Shown piece by piece: positions 4,649 through 23,314 of a stretch of 23,314 bases of DNA. The stretch comes from a virus. Taxonomy: Duplodnaviria > Heunggongvirae > Uroviricota > Caudoviricetes. The notes under the pieces are model-generated. The model was not told the origin of the DNA, made no database searches, and worked only from the letters and a program-made list of their open reading frames with translations. Numbering within the stretch: the stretch's first letter is position 1; each line of letters begins with the position of its first letter. A program made the translations under genes and the position numbers. The DNA lies in IMG/VR virus record IMGVR_UViG_2537561930_000016; one strand, 5' to 3'.

Positions 4649-4650
4649 CA

Positions 4651-5767: not shown

Positions 5768-5918
5768 CACTCCCACATGGGGAAATCTCGGTATATGGGG
5801 CGACCGCCTTCTGGATGCACTGGAAACCTGTAACGCGGATAAACGGGCCATTGAATTACTGGAACAGCGCAGGCTGCAACGACTGAACAACGAGGACAAC
5901 AACCATGCTGAAAACTGA
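5628..5918 (+). CDS. o-spanin (Rz1-like outer membrane lipoprotein), overlapped architecture
   Basis: Inside ORF 5598..5918: MNAPTLCLTLVLLTGCAG has a lipobox LTGC; Pro-rich mature region. Starts within the i-spanin gene and extends past it. Confidence 0.6.
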   Translation: MNAPTLCLTLVLLTGCAGTQNAPRPAPSVRLIPQTLTIPVTPPPFPDTPTWGNLGIWGDRLLDALETCNADKRAIELLEQRRLQRLNNEDNNHAEN

Positions 5919-7925: not shown

Positions 7926-7927
7926 TC

Positions 7928-9347: not shown

Positions 9348-9349
9348 GT

Positions 9350-11644
9350 ATGAGTACCACAACACGAAAATTTAAAACCGTTATCACCGATACGGGTGCC
9401 AAAAAATTAGCTCAGGCAGCCGCGCCAGATGGTAAGCCTGTTCGCCTGACTCATATGGCCGTGGGCGACGGTGGCGGCACGTTGCCCACACCAGACAGTA
9501 AGCAGACCCGTCTGGTGCATGAGGTGTGGCGACACACTGTTAATCGCGTCATCCTGGACGCAACACATCAGAACCGCATTATTGCGGAGCTGCTTATTCC
9601 TCCTGAAACGGGCGGATTCTGGATCCGGGAAATTGGTGTGTTTGATGAGAACGGCGATTTGATCGCGGTGGGCAATACTGCCGAAAGTTACAAGCCAATC
9701 GTTGCCGAAGGGTCCGGACGTGCACAAACATTTCGCACCATTCTGACCGTATCCAGCACTGCCACCGTGGCGCTTACCGTGAATAACACCATGGTGATGG
9801 CCACAGTGGATTACGTGGATGACAAACTGAAAGAGCATGAACAGTCACGACGTCACCCGGACGCCTCGCTGACCGCAAAAGGCTTTGTTCAACTCAGTAG
9901 CGCCACTAACAGCGTGTCTGAAACGCAGGCTGCAACGCCGAAAGCGGTTAAGGCCGCGTATGATCTTGCTAACGGAAAATATACTGCGCAGGATGCCAGC
10001 ACGACGCGAAAAGGCCTTGTCCAGCTCAGTAGCGCCACCAACAGCACGTCTGAAACGCAGGCTGCAACGCCGAAAGCAGTAAAGGCCGCGTATGACCTTG
10101 CTAACGCAAAATATACCGCTCAGGACGCCACGACAGCACAAAAAGGGATTGTCCAGCTCAGTAGTGCCACCAACAGCACGTCTGAAACACTGGCCGCGAC
10201 ATCGAAAGCGGTTAAGGCGGTAATGGATGAAACGAACAAGAAAGCGCCCTTAAACAGTCCTGTGTTGACCGGAACGCCAACAACGCCAACTGCGCGACAG
10301 GGAACGAATAATACCCAAATCGCAAGCACGGCTTTCGTTATGGCTGCAATTGCCGCCCTTGTAGATTCGTCACCTGATGCACTGAACACGCTGAACGAGC
10401 TGGCTGCGGCGCTGGGCAACGACCCGAATTTTGCGACCACCATGACTAACGCGCTTGCGGGTAAGCAACCGAAAGATGCCACCCTGACGGCGCTGGCCGG
10501 GCTTGCTACTGCGGCAGACAAGTTTCCGTATTTTACGGGGAATGATGTCGCCAGCCTGGCAACTCTGACAAAAATCGGGCGGGATATTCTTGCGAAATCG
10601 ACCGTTGCCGCCGTTATCGAATACCTCGGTTTACAGGAAACGGTAAACAGGGCTGGTAACGCCGTGCAAAAAAATGGCGATACCTTGTCCGGTGGGCTTA
10701 CTTTTGAAAATGACTCAATCCTTGCCTGGATTCGAAATACTGACTGGGTGAAGATTGGATTTAAAAATGATGCCGATGGTGACACTGATTCATACATGTG
10801 GTTTGAGACAGGCGACAACGGCAATGAATATTTCAAATGGAGAAGCAAACAAAGTACCACAACAAAAGACCTGATGAATCTTAAATGGGATGCTTTGTAT
10901 GTTCTTGTCAATGCCATTGTAAATGGCGAAGTCATATCAAAATCAGCAAACGGCCTACGTATTGCTTATGGTAATTACGGATTCTTTATTCGTAATGATG
11001 GTTCAAATACATACTTCATGTTGACAAACTCCGGTGACAACATGGGGACTTATAACGGATTAAGGCCATTATGGATTAATAACGCTACTGGCGCTGTTTC
11101 GATGGGGCGTGGCCTTAATGTTTCAGGGGAGACACTTTCAGACCGTTTTGCTATTAACAGCAGTAATGGTATGTGGATTCAGATGCGCGATAACAACGCT
11201 ATCTTTGGGAAAAATATAGTTAACACTGATAGCGCTCAGGCGTTGCTTCGCCAGAATCACGCCGACCGCAAGTTCATGATAGGTGGACTGGGGAACAAGC
11301 AATTTGGCATCTACATGATTAATAATTCAAGGACAACCAATGGCACCGATGGTCAGGCGTACATGGATAATAACGGAAACTGGCTTTGCGGTGCGCAAGT
11401 TATTCCCGGCAACTATGGCAATTTTGATTCCAGATATGTGAAAGATGTTCGACTTGGTTCACAGCAATATTATGGAGTGAACAACTGGCAAACATGGAAT
11501 TTCCAGTGCCCGTCAGGTCATGTATTGTCTGGTATTAATGTTCAGGATACAGGGTCCAACTCTGCCGATAATATAGCGGGCGTTTATTACAGACCCGTTC
11601 AAAAGTATATAAATGGCACCTGGTATAATGTAGCGAGCGTTTAA
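9350..11644 (+). CDS. H: Tail fibre protein gpH-like (current orientation): constant N-terminal part ~9350..10627 fused to variable C-terminal domain 10628..11644
   Basis: 764-aa ORF. N-terminus [26 protein letters not shown]...MAVGDGGG resembles P2 H. Internal gix-like site at 10614..10639. C-terminus ends [11 protein letters not shown], paralleling the alternative cassette. Confidence 0.9.
9878..10230 (+). repeat. In-frame tandem repeat, 132-bp unit x ~2.7 (44-aa motif [40 protein letters not shown])
   Basis: Repeat units start at 9878, 10010 and 10142 (period 132), seen directly in DNA and protein. Causes spurious antisense ORFs 9845..10141 and 9885..10082. Confidence 0.8.
10614..10639. 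other. gix/pix-like 26-bp invertase crossover site (left), inside H coding sequence: TTATCGAATACCTCGGTTTACAGGAA
   Basis: Near-identical to the Mu gix sequence as I recall it (TTATCCAAAACCTCGGTTTACAGGAA). Inverted copy at 13434..13459 shares the 12-bp core ACCTCGGTTTAC and central TC dinucleotide. Confidence 0.8.
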
Positions 11645-11645
11645 T

Positions 11646-12173
11646 ATGATGCACTTAAAGAACATTAAAGCGGATAACGCTAAAACACTTGAGCAGTACG
11701 AATTAACAAAGAAACACGGAGTTATCTGGCTTTACTCTGAGGACGGAAAAAACTGGTATGAGGAAGTGAAAAACTTTCAGCCAGACACAATAAAGATTGT
11801 TTACGATGAAAATAATATTATTGTCGCTATCACCAAGGATGCCTCTACGCTTAACCCTGAAGGCTTTAGCGTCGTTGAGGTTCCCGATATAACAGCCAAT
11901 CGTCGTGCCGATGATTCAGGGAAGTGGATGTTTAAGGACGGAGCTGTGGTTAAACGGATTTATACGGCTGACGAACAGCAACAACAGGCCGAATCACAAA
12001 AGGCCGCGTTACTTTCCGAAGCAGAAAGCGTTATTCAGCCACTGGAACGCGCTGTCAGGCTGAATATGGCGACGGATGAGGAGCGCGCACGACTGGAGTC
12101 ATGGGAACGCTACAGTGTTCTGGTCAGCCGTGTGGATACGGCAAATCCTGAATGGCCACAAAAGCCTGAATAA
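11646..12173 (+). CDS. G: Tail fibre assembly chaperone (gpG/Tfa-like), orientation-A copy
   Basis: 175-aa ORF starting 2 nt after H stop; [14 protein letters not shown]...[13 protein letters not shown]...FQPDT motifs of the P2 G/Mu U tfa family. Confidence 0.85.
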
Positions 12174-12178
12174 AAATT

Positions 12179-12198
12179 AAGGCCCGCTATCGGGCCTT
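12179..12198. terminator. Hairpin AAGGCCCG-CTAT-CGGGCCTT between convergent tfa genes (probable bidirectional terminator)
   Basis: Perfect 8-bp GC-rich stem; A-run upstream on plus strand (a T-run for minus-strand transcripts). Confidence 0.5.
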
Positions 12199-12201
12199 GT
12201 C

Positions 12202-12735
12202 TCATTCAGGTTGTTCGGGAAATGTTACTGGCAGGCTGGAGGTGTCTGTAGATTCGACTTTCTGCGCATAGAGCATCCACTCGGTTAATTTTTGTTTATT
12301 CTCGTCGGAAATGATGCCCAGCCGTAGCTGTGAGTCCCATAGCTGGGTTTTATCCCTGACGAGCTGTAGCAGGCTTTGCTTTTCATTTTCCGCCTGCTGC
12401 CTCTGCTCTTCCTCGGTATAAGTTCGCTTTACCACTACGTCATCTTTGAACATCCATCTACCCGAAATGTCAGCACGGCGATTTGCTGTAATATCAGGTA
12501 ATTCAACGACGCTTGCGCCTTCCGGATTAATTGCTGAAACATCCTTTTCAATACAAATAATAACGCCGTTATGGTCATAGACCATTTTCAAAGTGTCTGG
12601 CTGGAAATTCTTTTGTTCCTCATACCAGTTTTTTCCATCCTCTGAATAAAGCCATTTGATGTTAAATTGTTTCGTTAGCTGGTATTGCTCTTTTGTTTTA
12701 GGGTTGCCAGCAGTAATGTTTTTTAAGTGCATCAT
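12202..12735 (-). CDS. Tail fibre assembly chaperone, alternative (orientation-B) copy
   Basis: 177-aa minus-strand [43 protein letters not shown]..., paralogous to the 11646..12173 product and convergent with it. Confidence 0.85.
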   Translation of the reverse strand: MMHLKNITAGNPKTKEQYQLTKQFNIKWLYSEDGKNWYEEQKNFQPDTLKMVYDHNGVIICIEKDVSAINPEGASVVELPDITANRRADISGRWMFKDDVVVKRTYTEEEQRQQAENEKQSLLQLVRDKTQLWDSQLRLGIISDENKQKLTEWMLYAQKVESTDTSSLPVTFPEQPE

Positions 12736-12737
12736 CG

Positions 12738-13451
12738 TTAAATACTCCCCGCGTTATACCACGTCCCATTAATGCAATACTGAATTGGCCTTGCCTGAGT
12801 TGTATCAATTAATTCATCACGGTTTCCGTTAACTGAACCCGTAACGACATAACCTGACCTGTCAGACCAGCCGGGACCATTCCATGTCTGAACAGATGAC
12901 AGACCGCCAAGGCGAATACCTGTAATAAACCTTGAGTTACATTCTGCCCGCGTATATGCACCAACATCTCCCGCTGAAGGTTTTCGTGTCGTGGTATAGA
13001 AATCTGACCAACCTAATTCAAACCCATAACCATCACGAGCCGACCTGTAGGAAATGCCACCATTTTTATAATTCACACGGAATTGTACGGCAGGACAGCT
13101 ACCAGCATTTATATTAAAGTGAAGAATTAATGCAGATGCACCACCAATCAGGGCGTTATATGCACCACTATCCCAATTCCATCCAACGGATGTATCACCA
13201 TTAACAGTATTACCTGTTTGTCGGAGTGCAAATGCATTGACATTTTTGGCACTAATTGAAATATCGCTAGAACCATCAAAACCAACTCCAGCAATTTTTC
13301 GTGCTGTTTTCAGCTTTGTTGCAGTAGCGGCATTGCCGGACAGTTCCCCAGAAAGGCCACCGCTGAATGTTTGTCGATTGGTCCAGGTATTCGCTGTACT
13401 GAGTAACGGTATTTTCTCCCCGCTTGTGCCGAGTTCTCGTAAACCGAGGTT
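12738..13451 (-). CDS. Alternative tail-fibre C-terminal cassette (promoterless, no start codon; expressed only after inversion fuses it to the constant part of H)
   Basis: Minus-strand frame open from just after TAA (13454..13452) to stop at 12738. Hand translation ...LGLRELGTSGEKIPLLSTANTWTNRQTFSGGLSGELSGNAATATKLKTARKIAGVGFDGS...INGTWYNAGSI; shares LGL crossover codons and C-terminal INGTWYN motif with H. ORF track shows only the last 112 aa (from internal GTG). Confidence 0.75.
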   Translation of the reverse strand, partial: NLGLRELGTSGEKIPLLSTANTWTNRQTFSGGLSGELSGNAATATKLKTARKIAGVGFDGSSDISISAKNVNAFALRQTGNTVNGDTSVGWNWDSGAYNALIGGASALILHFNINAGSCPAVQFRVNYKNGGISYRSARDGYGFELGWSDFYTTTRKPSAGDVGAYTRAECNSRFITGIRLGGLSSVQTWNGPGWSDRSGYVVTGSVNGNRDELIDTTQARPIQYCINGTWYNAGSI

Positions 13452-13459
13452 TTAAATAA
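13434..13459. other. gix/pix-like 26-bp invertase crossover site (right), inverted relative to left site: TTCTCGTAAACCGAGGTTTTAAATAA
   Basis: Reverse complement TTATTTAAAACCTCGGTTTACGAGAA matches the left site at about 21 of 26 positions including the 12-bp core; lies 55 bp upstream of the invertase start. Confidence 0.8.
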
Positions 13460-13513
13460 TGGCCGTTTCTGGCCTGCATGGCATGATTTGTGCTTTTGGA
13501 CGGGAGATTCAGT

Positions 13514-14113
13514 GTGCTGATTGGCTATGTAAGGGTATCAACAAATGACCAGAATACAGACCTGCAACGAAACGCTCTTGTTTGTGCAGGATGTGAACAA
13601 ATATTTGAAGATAAATTAAGCGGGACAAAGACAGACCGACCGGGATTAAAACGCGCTTTAAAGCGCCTTCAAAAAGGTGACACGCTGGTTGTCTGGAAAC
13701 TGGATCGCCTCGGGCGAAGCATGAAACATCTGATTTCTCTCGTCGGGGAACTACGGGAGCGAGGGATTAATTTTCGCAGTCTGACCGACAGCATAGACAC
13801 ATCTTCTCCAATGGGGCGTTTTTTCTTCCACGTGATGGGTGCCCTGGCTGAAATGGAACGTGAATTAATTGTTGAACGTACACTGGCCGGGCTGGCGGCA
13901 GCGCGCGCAAGGGGGCGCACAGGCGGACGTCGACCGAAGCTGACAAAAGAACAGCATGAGCAAATAGCAAGGCTAATCAAAAACGGGCACGACAGAAAAC
14001 AACTGGCAATAATTTACGGCATTGGCACATCGACGATTTATCGTTATCACCCTGTAGGCGATATACAGACTGAAGAAACAACCGGGCAGACTCAGGAAAA
14101 TGAAAACCGCTAA
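13514..14113 (+). CDS. pin: Serine DNA invertase, Hin/Gin/Pin/Cin family
   Basis: ORF 13490..14113; probable start GTG 13514 giving (M)LIGYVRVSTNDQNTDLQRNAL...LVVWKLDRLGRSMKHL...GRRPKL..., which I recognise as the conserved N-terminal catalytic region (VRVSTxxQ, active-site Ser) and C-terminal HTH of this family, very close to e14 Pin as I recall. Symbol is tentative (could be a Fin/Gin-type orthologue). Confidence 0.9.
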   Translation: MLIGYVRVSTNDQNTDLQRNALVCAGCEQIFEDKLSGTKTDRPGLKRALKRLQKGDTLVVWKLDRLGRSMKHLISLVGELRERGINFRSLTDSIDTSSPMGRFFFHVMGALAEMERELIVERTLAGLAAARARGRTGGRRPKLTKEQHEQIARLIKNGHDRKQLAIIYGIGTSTIYRYHPVGDIQTEETTGQTQENENR

Positions 14114-14132
14114 TCTGACCATTAGCGGTTTT
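14103..14132. terminator. Bidirectional rho-independent terminator between convergent invertase and gpU genes
   Basis: AAAACCGCTAAT-CTGACC-ATTAGCGGTTTT: perfect 12-bp stem, 6-nt loop, flanked by A-run and T-run; overlaps the invertase stop codon. Confidence 0.65.
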
Positions 14133-14141
14133 TGTGTTAAA

Positions 14142-14636
14142 TCAGAACAGCCCTTTAACTGAACTGGCCACGCTGTTAAGAGATGATGTCACCTTATCTT
14201 TGAAGCCGGACAGCATATCACTGAACGATGAGGATTGCAGGCGCTCCCGCAAATCCTCATCACAGCGTTCAAGAGTCAGTGAAAATTCTATCTTTTTCGC
14301 CTTACCGTAGCGATCAAACTCGGAGCGGGTCGTATTCGTTTCAGTCAGGACATACATGCCGTAAATCTGCCCGACGCCATCAATCAAAGGCCAGGGTCGT
14401 CCTGTATACGCCTGCGTGGTCAGCAGCGACAGCGACACTTCGCCACCTGTAATTTCAGGATAAAGCACACCAGAAAGAACGATGCGATCATCACCTGCAC
14501 CGATATACTGCCAGCTTGCTGAACGGTTAACGCGTTCATTTTTCACATGCCGCCAGCTTTTGTTTTGCTGTAACTGCTGATGCGGCAGCGTGCGCAGCTC
14601 AAAAACAAACATGCCGTAGATCATCATCATGGCCAT
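14142..14636 (-). CDS. U: Tail protein gpU-like
   Basis: 164-aa minus-strand ORF immediately downstream of the tape measure gene; size and position match P2 gpU. Confidence 0.75.
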   Translation of the reverse strand: MAMMMIYGMFVFELRTLPHQQLQQNKSWRHVKNERVNRSASWQYIGAGDDRIVLSGVLYPEITGGEVSLSLLTTQAYTGRPWPLIDGVGQIYGMYVLTETNTTRSEFDRYGKAKKIEFSLTLERCDEDLRERLQSSSFSDMLSGFKDKVTSSLNSVASSVKGLF

Positions 14637-14642
14637 GACTCC

Positions 14643-17486
14643 TCAATCTTTATCGTAAAAACTGCCACGCCCGGCACGAGCGCGCCGTTCCATTTCTGCC
14701 CTGACCATTTCACCGACCAGTTTGGCCAGTTCGCGGGGATTCTGTGTAACAACGTTATGCAGATGAACATGAATTTCACCGCCAAATCCGGAGGCAACAG
14801 GCTCCCGGTTACGGGAAGTTGCAGGAACTGATGCCACTGGCGATCGTATGGCCTCTGCCACCGGGCGGGAGCTGGCCGCAACAACAGGGATCAGCGCCGG
14901 AGGCAGCGGAGCCGGAACCACAGGTGTGATATTAATTGCGGGAGCAGGCTTACTGACCTGCGCAATCTTCCGCTCCTGCCACTCCCCACGAACGGCAAGT
15001 GCGCGGGGCAGGTTCTTAAAGACAATATCGCCGGGGCCAATACGTTTTTTCGTCTCATCAACCAGCTTACCTGTGTTATCAGCAATTTTGCTGAGTCTGC
15101 GTAGCGTACCGGTATTGCTGTCTGTGAGCGGTTTGTTGTCTTTGGGTTTATCACCTCCGGTGCCATTGCCATTTTCCACAGGCTTCGGCGGATTGATTTT
15201 CGCCAGGTCCCCCTGAAGCAAGGCAACCTTGTCCTGAAGAATGGCCGCACGCTGTGCGTCTTCGATTTTCTTGCGCGCCCTTTCCGCTTCATCCGGAAGC
15301 ACACCGAGCTTTTCAAGTATCCACGCCAGCGTATCCAGCAACATTTTTGCAGGTGTCAGAACAAGTTGTAACGCACCGCCAAGAACGTTACCGAATATCT
15401 CGCCAGCACTGGTACATTTATCCAGCGTTTCCTTGCTGGACTCCATCGGTGACAGCAGCGATTTAAACCAGTTAAAGACCTGAATAATCCCATCACGCAC
15501 GACATCAAAAACAGGACCGAACCGTTCAAAGGTTTCGCGCAACGGAGCCAGCCGTTCCATAATCCCACTGAACACCCCGGCATAAAACGCCTTGATGGGT
15601 TCCCAATATTTCCAGATGAGAACCGCCGCAGCCACAAACGCAGCAACAATCAATCCAACCGGACTGAACAGCGCCCCGATAGCGCCTCCCAATAAAGAAA
15701 CGGAACCCGTCACCATTCCCCATAGTGCTGGCAGGACCCTGACAGCATTCATTGATCCGGTCAGGAGAGAAAAACCAAGACGCAGTTTTGCCAGCGGGCC
15801 AGCAAGCACACCAATAGCCAGCGACAACGAGCCAACCGTTGCAGTCATTGCCAGCAACGCACCGCCTGCTATCAGTAGCTGGCGCGTCAGTGCGGGATGG
15901 GCCTGCGCCAGCGCCGTCACCTTTGAGACCACCCGCGTGAGCCACTGCGTGACAGAACGCAGCGGACCGTCAATCAGATCTGCAATGCGGATGCGCAGCC
16001 CTTCCCATGCACTGCTGAGTGATTTCAGATCGCCGTCAAGGTTGTTGGCCATAACCTTTGCCGTGCGTTCAGCCTCACCGCGCGCGCCTTCAAGTTCTTT
16101 TCTCAGTTTGGGCAGGGAACCGTCACCTGCCGCATCAACGAGCGCCATAAATGATGTGAAAGCCTCTTCTCCGGCAATGTCCTTAAAGAACGATACCCGG
16201 TCAACTTCCCCGTATTTGCGGGTGGCTTTATAAAGGTCGGCCAGCACATCCTCCATCGGGCGCATTTTGCCGTTCGCGTCAGAGACTGCCACACCAAGCT
16301 CTTTCAGCGCCTCTGCTGCTGCCTTTGGCGGTGATGCCAGACGAGCTAGGCTGGCACGCATTGCCGTCCCGGCATCACTCCCTCTGATACCCATATTCGC
16401 CAGCACGCCCGCCATCGCTGCGGCCTGCTCCAGCGATATTCCCAGCTTACCTGCCACCGGACCTGCATATTTCATGGTTTCGCCCAGTGCGCGAAGGTCA
16501 GTGTTGGTACGGGTAAACGCTGCAGTGAGTGTGTCACCGACCCGGTCCATCTGGTCAGCAGAAAGGCCGAACTGCGTCAGGATATTTGAGCCAATATCTG
16601 CCGTCTCGCCGAGATCCATACCGCCAGCCGTTGCCATGCTCAGCACGCCGGGAAGCGCAGCCTGAATGGCCTGCGGAGTGAAGCCAGCCATTGCAAGAAA
16701 TGCCTGTCCACTGGCGGCATCGCCTGCGGTGAACTGCGTTTCAGAGCCAAGTTTTAACGCCTGCTCACGCAGCGCCTTAAACTGCGGGCTGTTCTGGTCG
16801 ATTCGCGTCAGTGCCTGAACGCGGGACATCTCTTTGCCGAACCCGATCGCAGGCTGCAAAAAACGCCCGGCAGCATAGCCGCCAGCCGCTGCCGCACCAG
16901 TTGCCAGTGCACCACCTGTTTTCAGTTTTCCCGCTGTTTCCTGCGCGCGCGAATACCGCTCACGCGCCCGCGTTACACGCGCAAGCGCCTGCCGTTCGCG
17001 TTCAAGCTGGTTGTTGTACTGTTCGCTGCGTCTGATGGCCTGCTGGATGGTGTTATCGCTGCCTGTCAGGGAAATGCCGTGGCGTTTCAGCTCTCCGCCA
17101 AGCTCCCGCATTTTCTGAATTTCCCGCGTGCGCGATTCATTCAGGCGTTCAAGCCGGGTGCTTAACTGCTGCATCAGCTTTTGTTGTTTTTCGCTGAGCA
17201 CTGTACCCGTGCGTTGTAACTGATTAAGGGCGTTAAGCTGGCGTCGCGCTTTCACGATGCCCGCATCCGCTTTACTGACAGCGTCGCGGGCGCGCTCAAA
17301 TGAACGCGCCTGACGCTCGAGATTTTTGATCGCCCCCTGCGTTCGCTGGATGGAGTCACCAAACTGCCCCATCAGGCGGCGGGCGTTTTCGGCAGGTCGG
17401 GTCAGCCTGTCAACGGCGCTGAAAGCGACCCGGATATCAAGAGTCTTCATTGTCTGCATTCCCGCTGCGAAGTGCCGCCCGCTCAC
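14643..17486 (-). CDS. T: Tail tape measure protein gpT-like
   Basis: 947-aa minus-strand ORF; long coiled-coil N-terminal region, central Gly/Ala-rich hydrophobic segments, position after E/E'. Confidence 0.85.
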   Translation of the reverse strand: MSGRHFAAGMQTMKTLDIRVAFSAVDRLTRPAENARRLMGQFGDSIQRTQGAIKNLERQARSFERARDAVSKADAGIVKARRQLNALNQLQRTGTVLSEKQQKLMQQLSTRLERLNESRTREIQKMRELGGELKRHGISLTGSDNTIQQAIRRSEQYNNQLERERQALARVTRARERYSRAQETAGKLKTGGALATGAAAAGGYAAGRFLQPAIGFGKEMSRVQALTRIDQNSPQFKALREQALKLGSETQFTAGDAASGQAFLAMAGFTPQAIQAALPGVLSMATAGGMDLGETADIGSNILTQFGLSADQMDRVGDTLTAAFTRTNTDLRALGETMKYAGPVAGKLGISLEQAAAMAGVLANMGIRGSDAGTAMRASLARLASPPKAAAEALKELGVAVSDANGKMRPMEDVLADLYKATRKYGEVDRVSFFKDIAGEEAFTSFMALVDAAGDGSLPKLRKELEGARGEAERTAKVMANNLDGDLKSLSSAWEGLRIRIADLIDGPLRSVTQWLTRVVSKVTALAQAHPALTRQLLIAGGALLAMTATVGSLSLAIGVLAGPLAKLRLGFSLLTGSMNAVRVLPALWGMVTGSVSLLGGAIGALFSPVGLIVAAFVAAAVLIWKYWEPIKAFYAGVFSGIMERLAPLRETFERFGPVFDVVRDGIIQVFNWFKSLLSPMESSKETLDKCTSAGEIFGNVLGGALQLVLTPAKMLLDTLAWILEKLGVLPDEAERARKKIEDAQRAAILQDKVALLQGDLAKINPPKPVENGNGTGGDKPKDNKPLTDSNTGTLRRLSKIADNTGKLVDETKKRIGPGDIVFKNLPRALAVRGEWQERKIAQVSKPAPAINITPVVPAPLPPALIPVVAASSRPVAEAIRSPVASVPATSRNREPVASGFGGEIHVHLHNVVTQNPRELAKLVGEMVRAEMERRARAGRGSFYDKD

Positions 17487-17655
17487 GCCAGCTAACCACT
17501 TCGCCGGGCGTCATCATGAAGATTTCGGCGGGCGACCAGTTAAAAATAACGGCAATATCTGCCACAAAGTCTTCTATGTGCTCAAAGCACACAACCGTGA
17601 TCAGGCTTCCGTCGCCTGTTCGTTCTTCCCGCCAGAGTCCGCACCGCTCAAAAAA
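17437..17655 (-). CDS. E' extension frame of tail assembly chaperone (expressed as E+E' fusion by -1 programmed frameshift)
   Basis: ORF 17437..17673 is in the -1 frame relative to E and overlaps its 3' end; slippery heptamer T_TTT_TTG at 17655..17649 lies in the overlap; frame ends inside the start of T. Confidence 0.65.
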   Translation of the reverse strand, partial: FFERCGLWREERTGDGSLITVVCFEHIEDFVADIAVIFNWSPAEIFMMTPGEVVSWRERAALRSGNADNEDS

Positions 17656-17966
17656 TTTACGGCAACCACACATAACTGAATAAAGTCACGGGATGCCATT
17701 TTTTTGATCGTCACTTCATCCAGTCGCGGTGATGTCACGCGTGACAGCAGCGTAAACATGGATTCCGCTTTCAGATTCAGCACATCAGACAGCGACAAAT
17801 TTCGCAGAGATCCAGCCTGCTCAATAGCTCCGGTGATCTCCACATACGTGATTTTTTCGCCGCCTCGCTCAATTGGTTGGGTAAGTTTTACGCCACGCTC
17901 ACTGGTTTCTTTCACAGTGTCAGCAACTACCGTGTTTTCGGTATCGATGTTTTTCGTCTCTTTCAT
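17601..17966 (-). CDS. E: Tail assembly chaperone gpE-like
   Basis: 121-aa minus-strand ORF with AAGGAG RBS, between tail tube and tape measure genes, with overlapping -1 frame E'. Confidence 0.75.
   Translation of the reverse strand: MKETKNIDTENTVVADTVKETSERGVKLTQPIERGGEKITYVEITGAIEQAGSLRNLSLSDVLNLKAESMFTLLSRVTSPRLDEVTIKKMASRDFIQLCVVAVNFLSGADSGGKNEQATEA
17649..17655 (-). other. -1 programmed ribosomal frameshift slippery site TTTTTTG (E to E')
   Basis: Minus-strand sequence AAA-T TTT TTG-AGC in E zero frame (..VNFLS..); same heptamer type as the P2 E/E' and lambda G/GT sites. Confidence 0.65.
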
Positions 17967-18020
17967 CAGGAAACTCCTTTCAGTCAGAGGCGACGCACTG
18001 CGCCGCCTGCATATTACTTA

Positions 18021-18533
18021 TCAGCCAAGCCCAAGCGCGGAACGGATACGGTCAGGCACAATGTCCTTGCCGTCCTTCCGGTAGATGTGGTTCAACAGGT
18101 CGATTTCCCACAGCGGGCGATCGTTAACGCTCAGCTTGTAGTAGGTGTTTTTGACAGCGTAAGTGTGTGATGTGGCTTCGCCCTGTTTGGCTTCCCCCAT
18201 ATCAATTTCCGTCACACGTCCGCGCATCTCGATTTCATACAGATCGCTTTCTGCATCGGTGTAGTATTCACCCGCAAAACGCAGCAGCGTGCCGTCAATC
18301 GTGCCGCCATACTTAAGGAACAGCTCACGAACTGCGCCCCCCATGACAAAACTCGCATCAAGCGCGGAGTCGTCCAGACCGAGATCAATACTTACCGCCC
18401 CCATCATGCCACCACCACGATAGCTGTCGGTTTTGCGCGTCAGTTTGGGCGGCGTGACGGATGTCACTTTACCCACTTCGTTTTCACCATCCACAAACAA
18501 CGTAAAAAAGCGAAGATGTTTTGGTACAGCCAT
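18021..18533 (-). CDS. FII: Tail tube protein gpFII-like
   Basis: 170-aa ORF MAVPKHLRFFTLFVDGENEVGKVTSVTPPKLTRKTDSYRGGGMMG...; resembles P2 FII (..VTLPKLTRK...YRGAGM..). Start shares one base with the FI stop. Confidence 0.85.
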   Translation of the reverse strand: MAVPKHLRFFTLFVDGENEVGKVTSVTPPKLTRKTDSYRGGGMMGAVSIDLGLDDSALDASFVMGGAVRELFLKYGGTIDGTLLRFAGEYYTDAESDLYEIEMRGRVTEIDMGEAKQGEATSHTYAVKNTYYKLSVNDRPLWEIDLLNHIYRKDGKDIVPDRIRSALGLG

Positions 18534-19717
18534 CAGGCACCTCCCAGCACCGCAAATGCGGGACCAAAGAATTCATCAGTAAACGACTGGTAAAGCTCCA
18601 TGTCTTCCAGCGGGGGAACAGGCGTATATTTGTAGCGAATACGCACGCGCCCCTGACGTAAATTCGTGGTGCCGTTATCCACCACGTCATACCAGCACTC
18701 CGCCCCAATCAGTTTCCCGGCAGTAACCAGTGAATCCAGTTTTGCCCTGATGGCACTGATAACATCCTTCACGTTCGCAGGCGTCAGTGGACTGTCGATG
18801 GTTTCAAACTGCGCTTCCGCAATTGAATCAGCCAGCACCTGTGCGGTTCGGGTATACACCTCAAAGATGTAGGCGTTCGTTTCCGGTGTGCGGTTGCCCC
18901 AGAAGCGGAACCCGTTGCGACGAATAATGGTCGTGATTTCTTTGTTGTTGAGGCTGTTGGCATCGCTGTCTTCGGCCTGCAACGACCAGAACACATGCCT
19001 GGACATCCCCAGCACATTTTTAACCGGAACGTTGGACAGCGATTTGTGCCAGCCCTGTTCATGGTCAATGTACGCACGAAGGCCGCACGCATAAGCAGGC
19101 GCGGGGAACGTTTCGTTTTCGCCACTTTTCGGGTTGTAGGCGATGAAGTCCGGCCATAAGAGCATCACTTCACGTTCGTTGAATTTCTGGCGGTAGGTAA
19201 TCGCTTCAGCCATCGTGTTACAGCCGTGACATGAGGCATACACAAATGCGCGCAGTTTACCCGCAATCACGCACAGGGATTTTGTCACCGCCTCCGTGTC
19301 CAGCTCCGGCGCGGCCAGAATACGCGGACGGTATCCGATGCTTTCATCCTGCTCTGCAACAAGCAGCGCATACATCCCCGTATAGCTGCCGTCATCCTCA
19401 GAACCACCGATAACCAGTTGATCCTGCGTCTTTTCGTCTTCTTCTTTGTGTTCAGCCACGCGAACGACGATCACCTTTGTGCTCACCTGGTCTGCGATGG
19501 CCTTAAGCGCACGATAAAGCGTCCCCGTTGTTCCGCATTTTCCCAGCACGTCATTGACGCGGGTCAGCAGTGTGGGCTTGTTCAGCGGGAACAGCTTCGC
19601 GTCCGCATCATCCGCCGTTGCCACGATACCGATAACGCTGGAATCAACATCGTTAATCGCTGTTACCAGGTCGGTATTTTCCGTAACACGGGCACCATGA
19701 AAACGAGTTTCACTCAT
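18533..19717 (-). CDS. FI: Contractile tail sheath protein gpFI-like
   Basis: 394-aa ORF MSETRFHGARVTEN...IGIVATADDADAKLFPLNKPTLLTRV...; resembles P2 FI as I recall it. Confidence 0.9.
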   Translation of the reverse strand: MSETRFHGARVTENTDLVTAINDVDSSVIGIVATADDADAKLFPLNKPTLLTRVNDVLGKCGTTGTLYRALKAIADQVSTKVIVVRVAEHKEEDEKTQDQLVIGGSEDDGSYTGMYALLVAEQDESIGYRPRILAAPELDTEAVTKSLCVIAGKLRAFVYASCHGCNTMAEAITYRQKFNEREVMLLWPDFIAYNPKSGENETFPAPAYACGLRAYIDHEQGWHKSLSNVPVKNVLGMSRHVFWSLQAEDSDANSLNNKEITTIIRRNGFRFWGNRTPETNAYIFEVYTRTAQVLADSIAEAQFETIDSPLTPANVKDVISAIRAKLDSLVTAGKLIGAECWYDVVDNGTTNLRQGRVRIRYKYTPVPPLEDMELYQSFTDEFFGPAFAVLGGA

Positions 19718-19874
19718 AGCTTCAGCCCCTTGTATCCGTTAAATGATTCAGCAACAATCATCACCCACCACGCGCGTAATCTCACCCCTGCGCTATTCTC
19801 CCGTCACGGCGACAACAAAAAGCAGTAACCCACTCCGCACGCACATGCGACCATGCCGCACAGGGAGGGAACAG
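19718..19874. promoter_or_regulatory. Divergent intergenic region between sheath gene FI (minus) and gpD (plus); presumed promoter(s)
   Basis: 157-bp non-coding spacer between divergent genes; GGGAGGGA RBS precedes ATG 19875. No exact TGT-N12-ACA found. Confidence 0.3.
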
Positions 19875-20984
19875 ATGACCGACACCACCATGCAATTGCT
19901 CAGTCAGGGCACAGACCCTGTAAAAATGCCGGATTTTGATATTCTCGCGGAGGGTAAAACGCTGTCCGGCGTGGCAGAGCGCCTGATGAGCCTGTCACTG
20001 ACCGACAACCGGGGATTTGAGGCAGACCAGCTCACCATCACGCTGGATGATGCCGATGGCCAGTTGCAGCTACCGCCACGGGGCGCGCGCCTGAAGGTTC
20101 TCATTGGCTGGAAAGGCGAACCGCTGACAGAAAAAGGCACTTACATTGTTGATGAAATCGCTCACGAAGGACCGCCGGACAGGCTGACTGTTTCGGCCAG
20201 AAGCGCAGATTTTCGGGATGAATTTAACGTTAAACGTGAGGTGTCCTGGCATGATGTGACCGTTGAGCGTGTGGTATCCGCCATCGCTCATCGGTATGGT
20301 CTGAAACCGCAAATCAGCGAAATGCTGATGGATATCGAAATCGACCACGCCGACCAGACCGAAGAAAGCGACATGTCCTTCCTTACGCGCATGGCGGAAA
20401 TGCTGGGCGCAATCACCACGGTAAAAAGCAGCAATCTGTTATTCATCATGCCAGGTGGTGGCGTGAATGCACAGGGCCAGCCGTTGCCCTCGTTCGCCAT
20501 TACACGCAGCAGCGGCGATCGCCATCAGTTCCGTATTGCTGACCGCGAGGCGTATACGGGGGTGCGCGCCTACTGGCTTGATCTTAATTACGGGAAAAAG
20601 AAAAAAGTCAGCGTGAAACGCCGTAAACCGCCAAAACCCAAAAAGGAGAAAAGCAGCAGCCGTGAAGGTGATTATATGGAAGGCGCGGAAGGCAATGTGT
20701 TTGTGTTACGCAAGACTTATCAGAACGAGCAGGCAGCAAGACGCGCAGCGGCGGCAAAGTGGCAGCAGCTACAACGCGGAGCCGCATCATTTTCCATCAC
20801 GCTGGCACGTGGACGTGCAGAACTCTACCCCGAAATGCATGGCACGGTAACAGGATTTAAAAGCGAGATTGATAATCAGGACTGGATTATTGCAAAAGCC
20901 GAGCACACCATTGATAACAGCGGCTTTACCACGCAGCTTGAGCTTGAGGCAAAAATCCCGGAATGGATAGCAGAAACAGAATGA
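19875..20984 (+). CDS. D: Tail protein gpD-like (late control D family)
   Basis: ORF 19743..20984; preferred start ATG 19875 (MTDTTMQLLSQGTD...) with strong RBS. Size ~370 aa; gene upstream of ogr as in P2. Confidence 0.75.
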   Translation: MTDTTMQLLSQGTDPVKMPDFDILAEGKTLSGVAERLMSLSLTDNRGFEADQLTITLDDADGQLQLPPRGARLKVLIGWKGEPLTEKGTYIVDEIAHEGPPDRLTVSARSADFRDEFNVKREVSWHDVTVERVVSAIAHRYGLKPQISEMLMDIEIDHADQTEESDMSFLTRMAEMLGAITTVKSSNLLFIMPGGGVNAQGQPLPSFAITRSSGDRHQFRIADREAYTGVRAYWLDLNYGKKKKVSVKRRKPPKPKKEKSSSREGDYMEGAEGNVFVLRKTYQNEQAARRAAAAKWQQLQRGAASFSITLARGRAELYPEMHGTVTGFKSEIDNQDWIIAKAEHTIDNSGFTTQLELEAKIPEWIAETE

Positions 20985-21120
20985 TAAACCATAGATACCA
21001 TGAAAAAGATAAATACAGAATAGTTACGCCGGACTTAAGAATACACTCACGCTAAAAAATATTTGTAATGATTTACTTGATATTTATGGTACGTGGCACC
21101 TCACTAAGGCGTCCGCCTCA

Positions 21121-21151
21121 GGCCACAGATAGCAAATCTGTGACCTTTTTT
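21121..21151 (+). terminator. Rho-independent terminator-like hairpin plus T6 downstream of gpD, inside AT-rich island
   Basis: GGCCACAGA-TAGCAAA-TCTGTGACC followed by TTTTTT (stem 8 of 9 paired). Confidence 0.45.
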
Positions 21152-21167
21152 GAAGACTTAGAATTCA

Positions 21168-22604
21168 TTAACTAAATTTTATATGACTTGATGCTAGAGC
21201 TTTAAATTCAGTGGTTTTCATAGTTTTTTCCAAAGTATCACCATTTACAATCAGATAATCTAAGATTTGCTTGAGCTTATCACTAACAACATTAGTTCTT
21301 ATATCCGTTAGAATTTGTACAGCATGCTTTCTACAGTTTTGGTTAGATAATAAGTGGTAAATCTCTTGATTATAGAATGCAATGATAACTTGAACAATAT
21401 TATCATCGCCCAGCATATTCAATATTGAATCGTATATGGGTTTGCCTAAAGGAGAAACACCAGCGTTATAAGAAACACCATTACCAATACGACACGATAG
21501 AATTATACGAATTAATTTTTCTTTACGTTCATTAGGAATATCCGATTCATTGGAAATGTAACTTAATATTTTCCTAGCATGAGGAACTTCATTATAGAAA
21601 TTATCCCAACCGCTGTGAGCAGAACTTAAATCATCCAGATATTCATCAAGCAGAATAACCCTAGCCTCAAGGGTTTTAAATTTATTACCAGAGCAAAATT
21701 CGAAAAACTCGTTACCTGCTAAAAATTTATCATTGTGCAAGTTGGTTCGATAACCATCAAGCGCAACACCTAGTTTATATTTAATATTATTATCTGCACA
21801 TTCCCAAACTGTTGGAGCAATTTCAGATATATTTTTCTTAAGGATGTTATTTGCACCAGCACCAATATACATACCGAAGATTGTCTGAAGGACATTATCA
21901 CAATTTCTTGTGTGTAGCTGTTTGAGCCCATTTTTCATATGCTGCAAACTAGAGCTACTGATGACTTCAGTTTGATTTCGCAGATTCTCAACAAAAGCCT
22001 TAACTTGCAGTGCAGCCTCTGAAGGTGTGTCATTGATAACTTCTTGAACACATGTTTGCAACCACCCCATCAGTTCATAAGCATTGATTTTCGCATCATT
22101 AGGATGACTGGCTCCAAGATCATTGCGCATAATTAAAATATGGGTGAGTTTTTTATAAATTGAGTCGGAGATCAATTCTAATTTAGCGCAATTGTCAAGA
22201 AGAACTTTATCTTTAATACCACTTAAGTCACTTTCAGTACTAAATAGATCTCTATGTTTACCACCAACGGCAGCATCAAAAAAAAGTTCCAAACCATAAA
22301 TAACTGTCTTTCTTCGTAAGTTAAGTACAACTTCGTTCCAGACATAATTCAAGGCAGCATCAAACAAACCAATAGCACTTGCTGCTGCAAATTTGGACAA
22401 ATATCTAGAGTCACGCTTAACGTCTTCTGGTAACGCCATCACAAACTGAGGAAAGTTTGTTTGGACAACCTGACGCTCCATCGTTGAAGCAAGAACATTT
22501 TCTTTTGGTAATCCAAGCGACTCCAAAAATTGCTCGAATCGATTGAAATCTGTTGATACGAGTTGCCCTTGTGCTTGTGTGCTAGCTATTTCATGTGTGC
22601 TCAT
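21168..22604 (-). CDS. Hypothetical 478-aa cargo protein in AT-rich island; candidate abortive-infection/defence protein with HEPN-like Rx6H motif (R160..H167, IMRNDLGASHPN)
   Basis: Long uninterrupted minus-strand ORF in a region of ~30-35% GC (by eye), between two phage genes of much higher GC; convergent with gpD and divergent from ogr. No Walker A motif or other family signature that I recognise. Confidence 0.7.
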   Translation of the reverse strand: MSTHEIASTQAQGQLVSTDFNRFEQFLESLGLPKENVLASTMERQVVQTNFPQFVMALPEDVKRDSRYLSKFAAASAIGLFDAALNYVWNEVVLNLRRKTVIYGLELFFDAAVGGKHRDLFSTESDLSGIKDKVLLDNCAKLELISDSIYKKLTHILIMRNDLGASHPNDAKINAYELMGWLQTCVQEVINDTPSEAALQVKAFVENLRNQTEVISSSSLQHMKNGLKQLHTRNCDNVLQTIFGMYIGAGANNILKKNISEIAPTVWECADNNIKYKLGVALDGYRTNLHNDKFLAGNEFFEFCSGNKFKTLEARVILLDEYLDDLSSAHSGWDNFYNEVPHARKILSYISNESDIPNERKEKLIRIILSCRIGNGVSYNAGVSPLGKPIYDSILNMLGDDNIVQVIIAFYNQEIYHLLSNQNCRKHAVQILTDIRTNVVSDKLKQILDYLIVNGDTLEKTMKTTEFKALASSHIKFS

Positions 22605-22722
22605 TTTTATCCCGATTTTGAATGATTTAATTACTTAACCGTGTATCTATGCAAACTGTCAGTTGGAGTCTGAACCAGTACAACATAGAATAGCAGCACT
22701 ACTACATTTAAGGGAGGTCGCT
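22605..22722. promoter_or_regulatory. Divergent promoter region shared by the cargo gene (minus) and ogr (plus)
   Basis: 118-bp AT-rich spacer between divergent start codons; AGGGAGG RBS for ogr. Confidence 0.35.
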
Positions 22723-22983
22723 ATGTTCCGTTGTCCGCTTTGTGGCGCATCTGCCCGAATCCGCACCAGTCGTCCGGAAAATGATTCAAACACCGTGCGG
22801 CAAAAGTATTACCAGTGTAACAACCTGGAATGCGGCGTATGCTTCTCAACACTGGAAGCCTTCCATAAATTCACATCAAAACACGCCTCCGCCGTTCACT
22901 CTTCAGAAGGTATCCCGTGGCATGAGCTGCCAGCTTCACACAGAGGAAACAATCAGATGAGTTTGCCTTTACCTCAGAACTAA
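22723..22983 (+). CDS. ogr: Ogr/Delta-family zinc-finger late-gene transcriptional activator
   Basis: ATG 22723 inside ORF 22663..22983: MFRCPLCGASARIRTSR...YYQCNNLECGVCFSTLE, a CxxC...CxxxxC zinc-finger pattern resembling P2 Ogr (MFHCPLCQHAAHARTSR...HQCQNVNCSATF). Confidence 0.85.
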   Translation: MFRCPLCGASARIRTSRPENDSNTVRQKYYQCNNLECGVCFSTLEAFHKFTSKHASAVHSSEGIPWHELPASHRGNNQMSLPLPQN

Positions 22984-23043: not shown

Positions 23044-23256
23044 ATGGTCGGAGGGAATACCCGAAGGCCAGATGTGGAAAGGCCCCGGAAAACATCTCTG
23101 TTTAACCGAGGCCCTAACCGCATTACCTTGACAAGTGAAAGGTTAGCGCCTCTCCGGAAAAGGAGCAAGTGCTATGTCGCAAAAATCGCTTACGGCCATC
23201 ACGTTCTGCGTGACGGCAATCCTCATCATCTGGATGTTGCACGGTTCGCTGTGTGA
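23044..23256 (+). CDS. Possible mok-like overlapping reading frame of hok-type locus
   Basis: 70-aa ORF in a different frame overlapping the 5' half of the hok-like ORF, as mok does in hok/sok loci; no sequence-level recognition. Confidence 0.3.
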   Translation: MVGGNTRRPDVERPRKTSLFNRGPNRITLTSERLAPLRKRSKCYVAKIAYGHHVLRDGNPHHLDVARFAV

Positions 23257-23314
23257 AATACGGATGAGCTTCTGGGGAGCGGAGTTTGCGGCGTTCTTAC
23301 AGTGTAAGCAGTAA
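23174..23314 (+). CDS. hok: Hok/Gef-family type I toxin (small membrane peptide)
   Basis: ATG 23174 with AAGGAG RBS; 46 aa MSQKSLTAITFCVTAILIIWMLHGSLCEIRMSFWGAEFAAFLQCKQ. Pattern (hydrophobic TM)-W-M-x3-SLCE[IL]-x7-E[FL]AAFL-x-CK matches Hok family members as I recall them. Stop codon is the last 3 nt of the window. Confidence 0.7.
   Translation: MSQKSLTAITFCVTAILIIWMLHGSLCEIRMSFWGAEFAAFLQCKQ

What the first reader, a model, noticed from the sequence alone, without database searches (positions are those of the whole stretch)
14114..19874. Tail sheath-tube-E/E'-tape measure-U module is inverted relative to gpD and to canonical P2 synteny
In P2 as I recall it, FI-FII-E-T-U-D form one operon on the same strand as H-G. 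Here FI..U are all on the minus strand, ending convergently against the invertase, while D is on the plus strand and starts 157 bp from the FI start. All genes look intact, so this is either a lineage-specific rearrangement that separates D into its own transcription unit, an inversion that happened in this lysogen (possibly invertase-mediated at secondary sites), or an assembly artefact. I found no convincing gix-like repeats at the two junctions (14114..14141, 19718..19874).
Basis: partly seen in the sequence, partly recalled or inferred. Interest (0 to 1): 0.5.

Follow-up and report, generated by a model that had tools for sequence, protein, structure and literature searches.

The report
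Fixed tail-gene inversion in P88-like phages
The flipped sheath-to-gpU tail gene block is real, but it is the normal inherited gene order of a very common group of P2-related prophages (phage P88 and its relatives), not a recent inversion or an assembly error.

Summary
U, T, E/E', FII and FI lie on the minus strand (14142-19717). They converge on the invertase gene across a 28-bp gap, and FI is divergent from D, which starts 157 bp away at 19875.

The window is a P88-like (Xuanwuvirus) E. coli prophage, and this order is its standard arrangement. It is colinear at about 96% identity with phages P88, P884B11, 500465-2 and Citrobacter phiSM. The native FI-D junction is present in 1357 of 5426 complete E. 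coli genomes. Artificial "flipped-back" junctions match none.

The same order occurs in four further Peduoviridae genera (Novemvirus, Senquatrovirus, Reipivirus, Reginaelenavirus), in Serratia phage KSP20, and in prophages of about 13 enterobacterial genera. Most of those prophages have no detectable invertase gene next to the block. All 33 more distant relatives sampled keep the P2 order. It is therefore one old, fixed inversion, and neither an artefact nor an invertase event in this lysogen.

My inference on mechanism: the FI-D spacer carries one conserved P2-type activator site, T(C/G)T-N12-ACAAC, centred 46 bp from a -10-like hexamer on each side. This copies the shared pP/pO activator site of P2, so D probably has its own Ogr-dependent late promoter. 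Interest is low.

The parts
10614..10639 (.). Left gix-type crossover site of the real invertible tail-fibre segment (context only, not part of the inverted tail block)
   Evidence: repeat I2: a 30-nt inverted repeat, 80% complementary, paired with 13434-13463.
13434..13459 (.). Right gix-type crossover site, just upstream of the invertase gene
   Evidence: repeat I2. Window 13439-13869 is 92-96% identical to the Mu/D108 gin region.
13490..14113 (+). Serine DNA invertase (Gin/Hin type). The true start is probably a few codons downstream of 13490.
   Evidence: Resolvase 1.6e-50 and HTH_7 4.5e-13. Annotated as DNA invertase in P88.
14103..14132 (.). Bidirectional intrinsic terminator between the convergent invertase and U genes: a 12-bp perfect stem flanked by an A-run and a T-run
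   Evidence: Sequence. Terminator scan. Folding gives -17.1 kcal/mol (z -4.8) on the + strand and -15.7 kcal/mol (z -5.2) on the - strand. GC-rich hairpins also follow U in most relatives.
14142..14636 (-). gpU, last gene of the leftward tail operon
   Evidence: Phage_P2_GpU 5.5e-39. 46% identical to P2 U.
14643..17486 (-). gpT tape measure protein. By the P88 annotation the start may be at 17450.
   Evidence: PhageMin_Tail 2.3e-58. 33% identical to P2 T. P88 annotation.
17437..17966 (-). gpE (17601-17966) and the frameshift product E+E' (slippery T_TTT_TTG at 17655-17649; the E' frame ends at 17437)
   Evidence: frames and slippery site; phrog_103 tail protein. PGAP annotates a GpE-family ORF at the equivalent place.
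18021..18533 (-). gpFII tail tube
   Evidence: Phage_tube 1.1e-45.
18533..19717 (-). gpFI tail sheath, first gene of the leftward operon
   Evidence: three sheath domains. 46% identical to P2 FI.
19757..19762 (-). Predicted -10 hexamer (GATGAT on the - strand) of the FI promoter. Predicted transcription start near 19750.
   Evidence: Inference. The hexamer lies 46 bp from the activator-site centre. A hexamer with A2/T6 sits at the same distance in relatives (within 1 bp in a few).
19797..19821 (.). Predicted shared Ogr-type activator site TCT-N12-ACAACAAAAA (centre 19805.5)
   Evidence: It is the most conserved block of the spacer in 17 diverged loci. The form T(C/G)T-N12-ACA is found in 18 of 21 related loci, and the other three carry CCT. 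It is a perfect TGT-N12-ACA in SEN4, 3LV2017, KSP20 and Kluyvera. The same motif sits in the P/O spacer at 1004-1023.
19849..19854 (+). Predicted -10 hexamer (GACCAT) of the D promoter. Predicted transcription start near 19861.
   Evidence: Inference. It lies 46 bp from the site centre and is preceded by a conserved GC-rich run (CGCGCGCG in most relatives). It holds the same position in relatives.
19875..20984 (+). gpD (baseplate hub / late control D), divergent from FI
   Evidence: Phage_GPD; phrog_52 2.5e-165. 49% identical to P2 D. The start matches the P88 annotation.
21124..21151 (+). Terminator-like hairpin plus T-run that would end the D transcript in this prophage
22723..22983 (+). ogr/Delta-type zinc-finger late activator (CX2C...CX4C)
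   Evidence: NF007241 1.3e-11; phrog_603. 42% identical to P2 Ogr. Annotated as ogr/Delta-like in E. coli genomes.

Best explanation
The window is a P88-like (Xuanwuvirus, Peduoviridae) prophage. In this phage lineage the block pF-FI-FII-E/E'-T-U was inverted once, long ago, relative to the P2 order. The inversion is now fixed. It is shared by at least five ICTV genera and by prophages across Enterobacterales, with or without an invertase gene. The result is two transcription units. The first is a leftward FI-to-U operon that ends at a bidirectional terminator (14103-14132) shared with the convergent invertase gene. The second is a rightward unit that starts with D. The following part is inferred, not shown. 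Both units are driven from the 157-bp FI-D spacer by back-to-back late promoters. These share one dyad-type Ogr/Delta activator site (TCT-N12-ACA, centre 19805.5). That centre lies 46 bp from each -10-like hexamer, so it sits about 55.5 bp upstream of each predicted transcription start. This is the same layout that P2 uses for its divergent pP/pO pair, and D would therefore stay co-regulated with the rest of the tail genes.
For: Shown: (1) The window is colinear at about 94-96% identity across both junctions with 8 distinct sequenced phages (P88, P884B11, 520873, 503458, 500465-2, PhiR44_2, Chuche, Citrobacter phiSM), and the gene order is the same in the P88 RefSeq record. (2) The native FI-D junction is in 1357 complete E. 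coli genomes and the native invertase-U junction in 621. Artificial flipped junctions match 0 genomes. (3) Of 57 loci from different species, all 24 with FI >=69% identical have J-I-H-G> <U-T-E-FII-FI D>. All 33 with FI <=48% (alpha-, beta- and gammaproteobacteria) have the P2 order. (4) The same order occurs in SEN4 (FI 55%), phiT5282H, ST16-OXA48phi5.4, 3LV2017 and KSP20, whereas ENT90 is canonical. (5) P88 and phiSM form infective particles, so this order is functional (PMC5285337, PMC6456863). Evidence for the inferred promoter layout: (6) the activator-site block is the best conserved part of the spacer. (7) The spacing from site centre to a -10-like hexamer is 46 bp on both sides in the window and its relatives, within 1 bp in a few. 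(8) The same motif and spacing are found in the window's P/O spacer. (9) The P2 RefSeq record annotates a single activator site for pO and pP (3057-3087), with transcription starts at 3016 and 3127, each 55.5 bp from the centre of the TGT-N12-CCA element within it (3071.5). (10) The distance from site centre to the FI ATG is 82-88 nt here, against 83 nt for P2 pF. (11) TGT-N12-ACA is the published P2 late-promoter consensus, and a shared pP'/pO' site is reported for phage Smp131 (PMC3931495). (12) An ogr homologue is present in the window.
Against: No transcription data were available, so the transcription starts, the -10 hexamers and Ogr dependence are predictions. In this window the site is TCT, not TGT. 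The motif count in the window is not significant on its own: 3 matches, and 12 of 100 shuffles give at least 3. The -10-like hexamers match TATAAT at only 3-4 of 6 positions. No matching site was found for a pV-type third late promoter, so the late-promoter grammar of this clade is not fully understood. The papers I could read on P88, phiSM and SEN4 do not discuss the arrangement.
Confidence: 0.85

Rival explanations
1. The block was inverted recently in this lysogen, for example by the adjacent Gin-type invertase acting on secondary gix-like sites at the two junctions.
For: An invertase gene abuts the block. The best pseudo-gix matches in the two junction zones lie at the block borders in opposite orientation: 14138-14163(+) and 19717-19742(-), each 15/26. 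Only 30 of about 23,180 window positions score that high.
Against: A 15/26 match is weak, and the sites were picked post hoc. The junction sequences carrying them are not conserved in relatives. No E. coli genome shows a flipped junction, against 1357 and 621 with native junctions. The same order is present in relatives where tblastn finds no invertase next to the block. No inverted repeat links the junctions beyond chance.
Confidence: 0.01
2. The arrangement is an assembly artefact (a mis-oriented contig segment).
For: None beyond the departure from P2 synteny.
Against: The same junctions are found in more than a thousand independently assembled complete genomes and in phage genomes sequenced from virions.
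Confidence: 0.005
3. The inversion is fixed, but D is not driven from a shared Ogr site. It might have an independent promoter (constitutive, early, or with a separate activator), or the conserved ACAACAAAA block might serve another purpose, such as a binding site for a different factor.
For: The left half-site is TCT rather than TGT in most members. A conserved GC-rich run (CGCGCGCG in most relatives) lies just upstream of the D-side -10, and is also found on the P side, but it is absent from the FI and O sides, which suggests the promoters are not equivalent. There are no expression data.
Against: The 46-bp spacing is conserved to within 1 bp on both sides across loci whose spacer is otherwise diverged. 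The layout is identical at P/O. It matches the experimentally annotated shared site of P2 pP/pO. D is an essential structural protein needed at the same time as the rest of the tail (established P2 biology; annotation).
Confidence: 0.13
4. The P88-type order is ancestral, and the P2 order arose by inversion.
For: Gene order alone does not give direction.
Against: The P2 order is found in all 33 distant relatives sampled from alpha-, beta- and gammaproteobacteria, and in P2 and ENT90. The P88-type order is confined to one enterobacterial clade with FI >=55% identical. Parsimony therefore favours a single inversion within that clade.
Confidence: 0.03

Closest known systems
Escherichia phage P88 and other Xuanwuvirus (P884B11, 500465-2, 520873, 503458, PhiR44_2, Chuche, Citrobacter phage phiSM)
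   Same: Colinear over 13400-20200 at about 94-96% nucleotide identity, including both junctions. The gene order invertase> <U-T-E'-E-FII-FI D> ogr is identical.
   Different: This prophage has a 1.7-kb low-GC cargo gene inserted between D and ogr. Its tail-fibre H is only 84% identical to that of P88.
Other Peduoviridae genera with the same order: Novemvirus phiT5282H, Senquatrovirus SEN4/5, Reipivirus ST16-OXA48phi5.4, Reginaelenavirus 3LV2017, Serratia phage KSP20
   Same: Divergent D / FI-FII-E-T-U layout, and a spacer with the same site and -10 geometry.
   Different: FI is only 55-75% identical. The annotated records show no invertase next to U, and the cargo beside U differs. Several carry a perfect TGT-N12-ACA where the window has TCT.
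Phage P2 F operon (pF-FI-FII-E-E'-T-U-D)
   Same: The same seven genes in the same internal order FI to U. The same T_TTT_TTG frameshift for E'. The same distance from the activator site to the FI start (83 nt in P2, 88 nt here).
   Different: Here D is on the other strand and upstream of FI, so it cannot be part of that operon. Proteins are only 32-49% identical to those of P2.
Phage P2 divergent pP/pO late promoters with one shared Ogr-binding site
   Same: One dyad site midway between two back-to-back promoters. The centre is 55.5 bp from each mapped start in P2 and from each predicted start here.
   Different: In P2 this layout serves only P and O. Here it would also serve FI and D. The P2 starts are experimental, whereas those here are predicted.
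Mu G segment / Gin (and P1 C segment / Cin) invertible host-range cassettes
   Same: The window does contain such a cassette at 10614-13459, with gix sites and an invertase whose 5' part is 92-96% identical to Mu/D108 gin.
   Different: The FI-U block lies outside the cassette, has no flanking gix repeats, and is never seen flipped.

Membership tests
P88-like prophage (genus Xuanwuvirus, Peduoviridae) | High nucleotide identity and colinearity with the P88 genome | tested here: met
   96.4% identity over 99% of 13400-20200 in a single piece; the same order of X, J, I, H, G, inv, U, T, E, FII, FI, D, ogr, with 84-99% protein identity.
P88-like prophage (genus Xuanwuvirus, Peduoviridae) | Whole-genome identity at the level ICTV uses for a genus (about 70% over the full length, from memory) | not tested
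   The window covers only the late region (23.3 kb). The early and replication regions are outside it.
P2 F operon (single transcription unit FI to D) | D lies downstream of U on the same strand and is transcribed from pF | tested here: not met
   D is on the + strand at 19875-20984, and U is on the - strand at 14142-14636.
P2 F operon (single transcription unit FI to D) | Internal order FI-FII-E-E'-T-U with a -1 frameshift producing E+E' | tested here: met
Gin/Hin/Cin-type invertible DNA segment (tested for the FI-U block) | Segment bounded by inverted crossover (gix/hix) sites | tested here: not met
   no inverted repeat pairs the two junctions; best gix-like matches 15/26; best junction-to-junction 14-mer 11/14, reached by 39 of 200 shuffles.
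Gin/Hin/Cin-type invertible DNA segment (tested for the FI-U block) | Both orientations occur in populations | tested here: not met
   0 genomes with flipped junctions; 1357 and 621 genomes with native junctions.
Gin/Hin/Cin-type invertible DNA segment (tested for the FI-U block) | A cognate invertase is encoded next to the segment wherever the segment occurs | tested here: not met
   An invertase is present here. tblastn found one next to the block in only 3 of the 24 clade loci, and the annotated records of SEN4, phiT5282H, ST16-OXA48phi5.4 and 3LV2017 show none there.
Ogr/Delta-dependent P2-type late promoter (tested for the FI and D promoters) | TGT-N12-ACA-type dyad centred about 55 bp upstream of the transcription start | tested here: inconclusive
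   A conserved T(C/G)T-N12-ACA lies 46 bp from a -10-like hexamer on both sides. The consensus comes from PMC3931495 and the geometry from the P2 annotation. The transcription starts are not measured.
Ogr/Delta-dependent P2-type late promoter (tested for the FI and D promoters) | A cognate Ogr/Delta zinc-finger activator is encoded by the phage | tested here: met
   22723-22983: NF007241 1.3e-11 and phrog_603; 42% identical to P2 Ogr with CX2C...CX4C.
Ogr/Delta-dependent P2-type late promoter (tested for the FI and D promoters) | Transcription requires Ogr and the RNA polymerase alpha subunit | not testable with these tools
   This needs expression experiments.

The most novel reading that the evidence does not exclude
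After the ancestral inversion cut D off from pF, the dyad-symmetric Ogr site of pF was co-opted to fire in both directions. One activator site now drives FI-U leftward and D (plus ogr, in relatives without cargo) rightward. This would be a second, independently evolved copy of the shared-site pP/pO design. It would also show how a symmetric activator site can make an operon-splitting inversion survivable. As far as I could find, this is not described in the papers on these phages.
Probability: 0.55. Interest if true: 0.3.

Novelty: already known. Interest (0 to 1): 0.15.

Why it matters
The main value is as a correction: the finding is not a rearrangement event, a misassembly, or evidence of off-target invertase activity. 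It is the reference gene order of a prophage group carried by about a quarter of complete E. coli genomes. Annotators should therefore not flag it, and P2 synteny should not be taken as universal for Peduoviridae. There is a modest biological point. The clade offers a natural example of an essential operon split by an inversion, apparently rescued by bidirectional use of a symmetric late-activator site. This is cheap to test with 5'-RACE or reporter fusions in P88.

Tried and rejected
1. An exact TGT-N12-ACA search of the window found only one match, inside H. P2's own sites are also imperfect (TGT-N12-CCA), so I relaxed the pattern to T(C/G)T-N12-ACA(AC).

2. The sigma-70 consensus scan found no promoter in the FI-D spacer. 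This is expected for activator-dependent late promoters.

3. I looked for a third late-promoter site of the pV type upstream of R, S or V. None was found. The genes from O to G are packed without a clear gap.

4. I tested the idea that gix pseudo-sites sit at the junctions. The matches are weak (15/26) and not conserved, so I rejected it.

5. The Rfam scan of the window found nothing.

6. Text searches of the P88, phiSM, SEN4, Serratia PP4 and P2 defence-hotspot papers for any mention of the inversion found none.

7. Side follow-up of the D-ogr cargo gene gave no function: no Pfam, NCBIfam or PADLOC assignment, and no significant PDB fold match.
Full report
**Observation.**
- The invertase is at 13490-14113(+).
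- gpU is at 14142-14636(-), the tape measure T at 14643-17486(-), and gpE at 17601-17966(-).
- The tube protein FII is at 18021-18533(-) and the sheath protein FI at 18533-19717(-).
- gpD is on the + strand and ends at 20984.

D starts at ATG 19875, behind a GGGAGGG Shine-Dalgarno sequence. The FI-D spacer is therefore 157 bp, as stated. The invertase and U stop codons are 28 bp apart. The module is intact: it even keeps the P2-type T_TTT_TTG -1 slippery site (17655-17649) that leads from E into the E' frame.

**What the element is.** The 6.8-kb stretch spanning both junctions is colinear in a single piece with several sequenced phages. It matches Escherichia phage P88 at 96.4% identity and Xuanwuvirus P884B11 and Citrobacter phage phiSM at 96.2%, and also phages 500465-2, 520873, 503458, PhiR44_2 and Chuche. 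The P88 RefSeq annotation shows the same order: tail fibre H, G, inverted G' and H', DNA invertase(+), then U, T, E', E, FII and FI all (-), then D(+). The best E. coli match (99.0%) has the same order, followed by ogr and hok. The window is thus a P88-like (Xuanwuvirus, Peduoviridae) prophage. P88 and phiSM are inducible phages that form infective particles (PMC5285337, PMC6456863), so this gene order is functional.

**Is the block ever flipped?**
- The 6.8-kb query covers at least 80% in one place in 1358 of 5426 complete E. coli genomes. The block alone makes up 82% of that query, so I tested the junctions separately.
- An 801-nt query across the native FI-D junction is covered at least 80% in 1357 genomes.
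- A 771-nt query across the native invertase-U junction is covered in 621 genomes. This number is lower because the invertase region is variable.
- Two artificial queries that join the flanks to the flipped block (built) are covered at least 80% in 0 genomes, although their halves match 1657 and 1413 genomes.

The block therefore does not switch orientation. A recent inversion and an assembly error are both excluded.

**How far the arrangement extends.** A scan of one genome per species with FI returned 57 loci, and I located the neighbouring genes by tblastn.
- All 24 loci with FI at least 69% identical show J-I-H-G on one strand, U-T-E-FII-FI on the other, and D divergent from FI. These come from Salmonella, Citrobacter, Edwardsiella, Enterobacter, Kosakonia, Symbiopectobacterium, Pantoea, Mixta, Erwinia, Izhakiella, Trabulsiella, Kluyvera and Serratia, plus one probably mislabelled "Vagococcus" contig.
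- All 33 loci with FI at most 48% identical have the P2 order with D after U. These include Rouxiella, Pluralibacter, Yersinia aldovae, Acidovorax, Oligella, sphingomonads, Brevundimonas and others.
- Among sequenced phages, the inverted order is also annotated in Enterobacter phage phiT5282H (Novemvirus), Salmonella phage SEN4 (Senquatrovirus, FI 55%), Klebsiella phage ST16-OXA48phi5.4 (Reipivirus) and Klebsiella phage 3LV2017 (Reginaelenavirus). It is also in the Serratia phage KSP20 fragment, where the depositors already labelled divergent "gpD-like" and "gpFI-like" ORFs.
- Erwinia phage ENT90 (FI 51%) is canonical.
- tblastn found an invertase between G and U in only 3 of the 24 clade loci, and the annotated phage records above show none there.

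The simplest reading is one ancient inversion at the base of an enterobacterial Peduoviridae clade, unrelated to the invertase that happens to sit next to the block in P88-like phages.

**The junctions.**
- The left junction is a clean bidirectional intrinsic terminator. It reads AAAACCGCTAAT-ctgacc-ATTAGCGGTTTTT at 14103-14132 and overlaps the invertase stop codon. Folding gives -17.1 kcal/mol on the + strand and -15.7 kcal/mol on the - strand, with z-scores near -5. Most relatives also have a GC-rich hairpin just after U.
- The real invertible segment is elsewhere. Its gix sites are at 10614-10639 and 13434-13459, and they bound the alternative H/G tail-fibre ends.
- Nothing comparable flanks the FI-U block. 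No inverted repeat pairs the junctions beyond chance: the best 14-mer match is 11/14, which 39 of 200 shuffles reach.
- The best gix-like matches are 15/26, at 14138-14163(+) and 19717-19742(-). They do sit at the block borders in opposite orientation, which is mildly unusual. However, they were found post hoc, they are weak, they are not conserved in relatives, and the population data above contradict any role.

**How D is probably expressed (inference).** D has no upstream gene on its strand, so it needs a promoter in the spacer.
- An alignment of the spacer from 17 diverged loci shows that its most conserved block is GACAACAAAA, preceded 12 nt earlier by T(C/G)T. This is the P2-type late-activator element; the published consensus is TGT-N12-ACA (PMC3931495).
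- In the window the element is TCT-N12-ACA at 19797-19814, with its centre at 19805.5.
- It is a perfect TGT-N12-ACA in SEN4, 3LV2017, KSP20 and a Kluyvera prophage.
- A -10-like hexamer with A at position 2 and T at position 6 lies 46 bp from the centre on each side: GATGAT on the minus strand (19762-19757) and GACCAT on the plus strand (19849-19854). The same spacing holds in the related loci examined, within 1 bp in a few.
- This predicts transcription starts near 19750(-) and 19861(+), each 55.5 bp from the site centre.
- The window's other divergent late spacer, between the terminase gene P and the scaffold gene O, has the same design: TCT-N12-ACAAC at 1004-1023, with TAATCT (969-964, minus strand) and CATCAT (1057-1062) at the same distances.
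- The P2 RefSeq record annotates exactly this design from experiments. It lists one "activator binding site; pO, pP promoters" at 3057-3087, with mapped starts at 3016(-) and 3127(+). Both are 55.5 bp from the centre (3071.5) of the TGT-N12-CCA element that I located within that annotated site.
- The distance from site centre to the FI start codon is 82-88 nt in this clade and 83 nt for P2 pF. The FI-side promoter therefore looks like pF carried along with the block, and the D-side promoter looks like the new part.
- The phage encodes an Ogr/Delta zinc-finger homologue at 22723-22983.

None of this has been measured. The motif count within the window alone is not significant, and the -10 matches are weak, as is usual for activator-dependent promoters.

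**Comparison with known systems, and novelty.**
- The arrangement itself is already present, at about 96% identity, in RefSeq phage genomes, and it is annotated in GenBank records of several genera. It is therefore known, even though the papers I could read on P88, phiSM, SEN4 and Serratia PP4 do not comment on it.
- The block is not a member of the P2 F operon in the strict sense, because D is separated from it.
- The block is not an invertible segment, because it fails the flanking-repeat, population-polymorphism and invertase-linkage tests.
- The only possibly new element is the inferred bidirectional use of one late-activator site for FI and D.

**Verdict.** Interest is low (0.15).

Noticed in passing
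window 21168-22604 (-), with flanks 20985-22722: A low-GC (34-42%) 478-aa gene is inserted between D and ogr, where P88 has only about 45 bp. It belongs to phrog_27609 (unknown function) and has no Pfam, NCBIfam or convincing PADLOC hit. At least 869 homologues of about 476 aa occur across Proteobacteria, and all are annotated as hypothetical. Only 4 of 5426 E. coli genomes carry it at this place; others have PIN-domain, DUF2971 or other genes in the same slot, so the slot looks like a variable cargo (possibly defence) hotspot. The AlphaFold model is all-alpha, with a confident C-terminal alpha-solenoid (residues 200-478) and no significant PDB match. An invariant M-R-N-D-x-G-x-S-H motif (residues 159-167) resembles a HEPN Rx4-6H motif; that resemblance is from memory and untested.
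   Followed up: partly
window 10500-14000: The host-range cassette is mosaic. GC drops to 43-47%, against 53-59% elsewhere. Window 13439-13869 (right gix site plus the 5' two thirds of the invertase gene) is 92-96% identical to the gin region of Mu, D108 and SfMu. The G tail-fibre assembly protein is 90% identical to P2 G, whereas neighbouring structural proteins are 41-61% identical to those of P2.
   Followed up: partly
window 971-980; equivalent position upstream of the D-side -10 in related loci (L005-L020, L061-L066): A CGCGCGCG run lies directly upstream of the -10-like hexamer on the P side of the P/O spacer and, in most relatives, on the D side of the FI/D spacer. In this window the D-side run is degenerate (CGCACGCACATGCG). 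It is absent from the O and FI sides. Its meaning is unknown.
   Followed up: no
window 3000-9350: No T(C/G)T-N12-ACA site and no clear intergenic gap were found upstream of R, S or V, where P2 has pV. The O-to-G stretch may be a single long late transcript, or it may use a diverged site.
   Followed up: partly
locus L004 (NZ_JBQPOM010000071.1, 'Vagococcus sp. WN89Y'): A contig assigned to a Gram-positive genus carries a P88-like prophage whose FI is 97% identical to the window's. This is most likely contamination or a mislabelled assembly.
   Followed up: no
locus L002 26476-27585 (E. coli EC21Z-048, the closest match to the window): In the most similar E. coli genome the D gene is annotated as broken: an 801-nt ORF plus a pseudogene fragment. 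That prophage copy is probably defective, whereas D is intact in the window.
   Followed up: no
window 23175-23314 (+): A hok/gef-type small toxin ORF follows ogr at the window's right end, as in P88 (gp52, MokW-like/hok) and in E. coli annotations.
   Followed up: no
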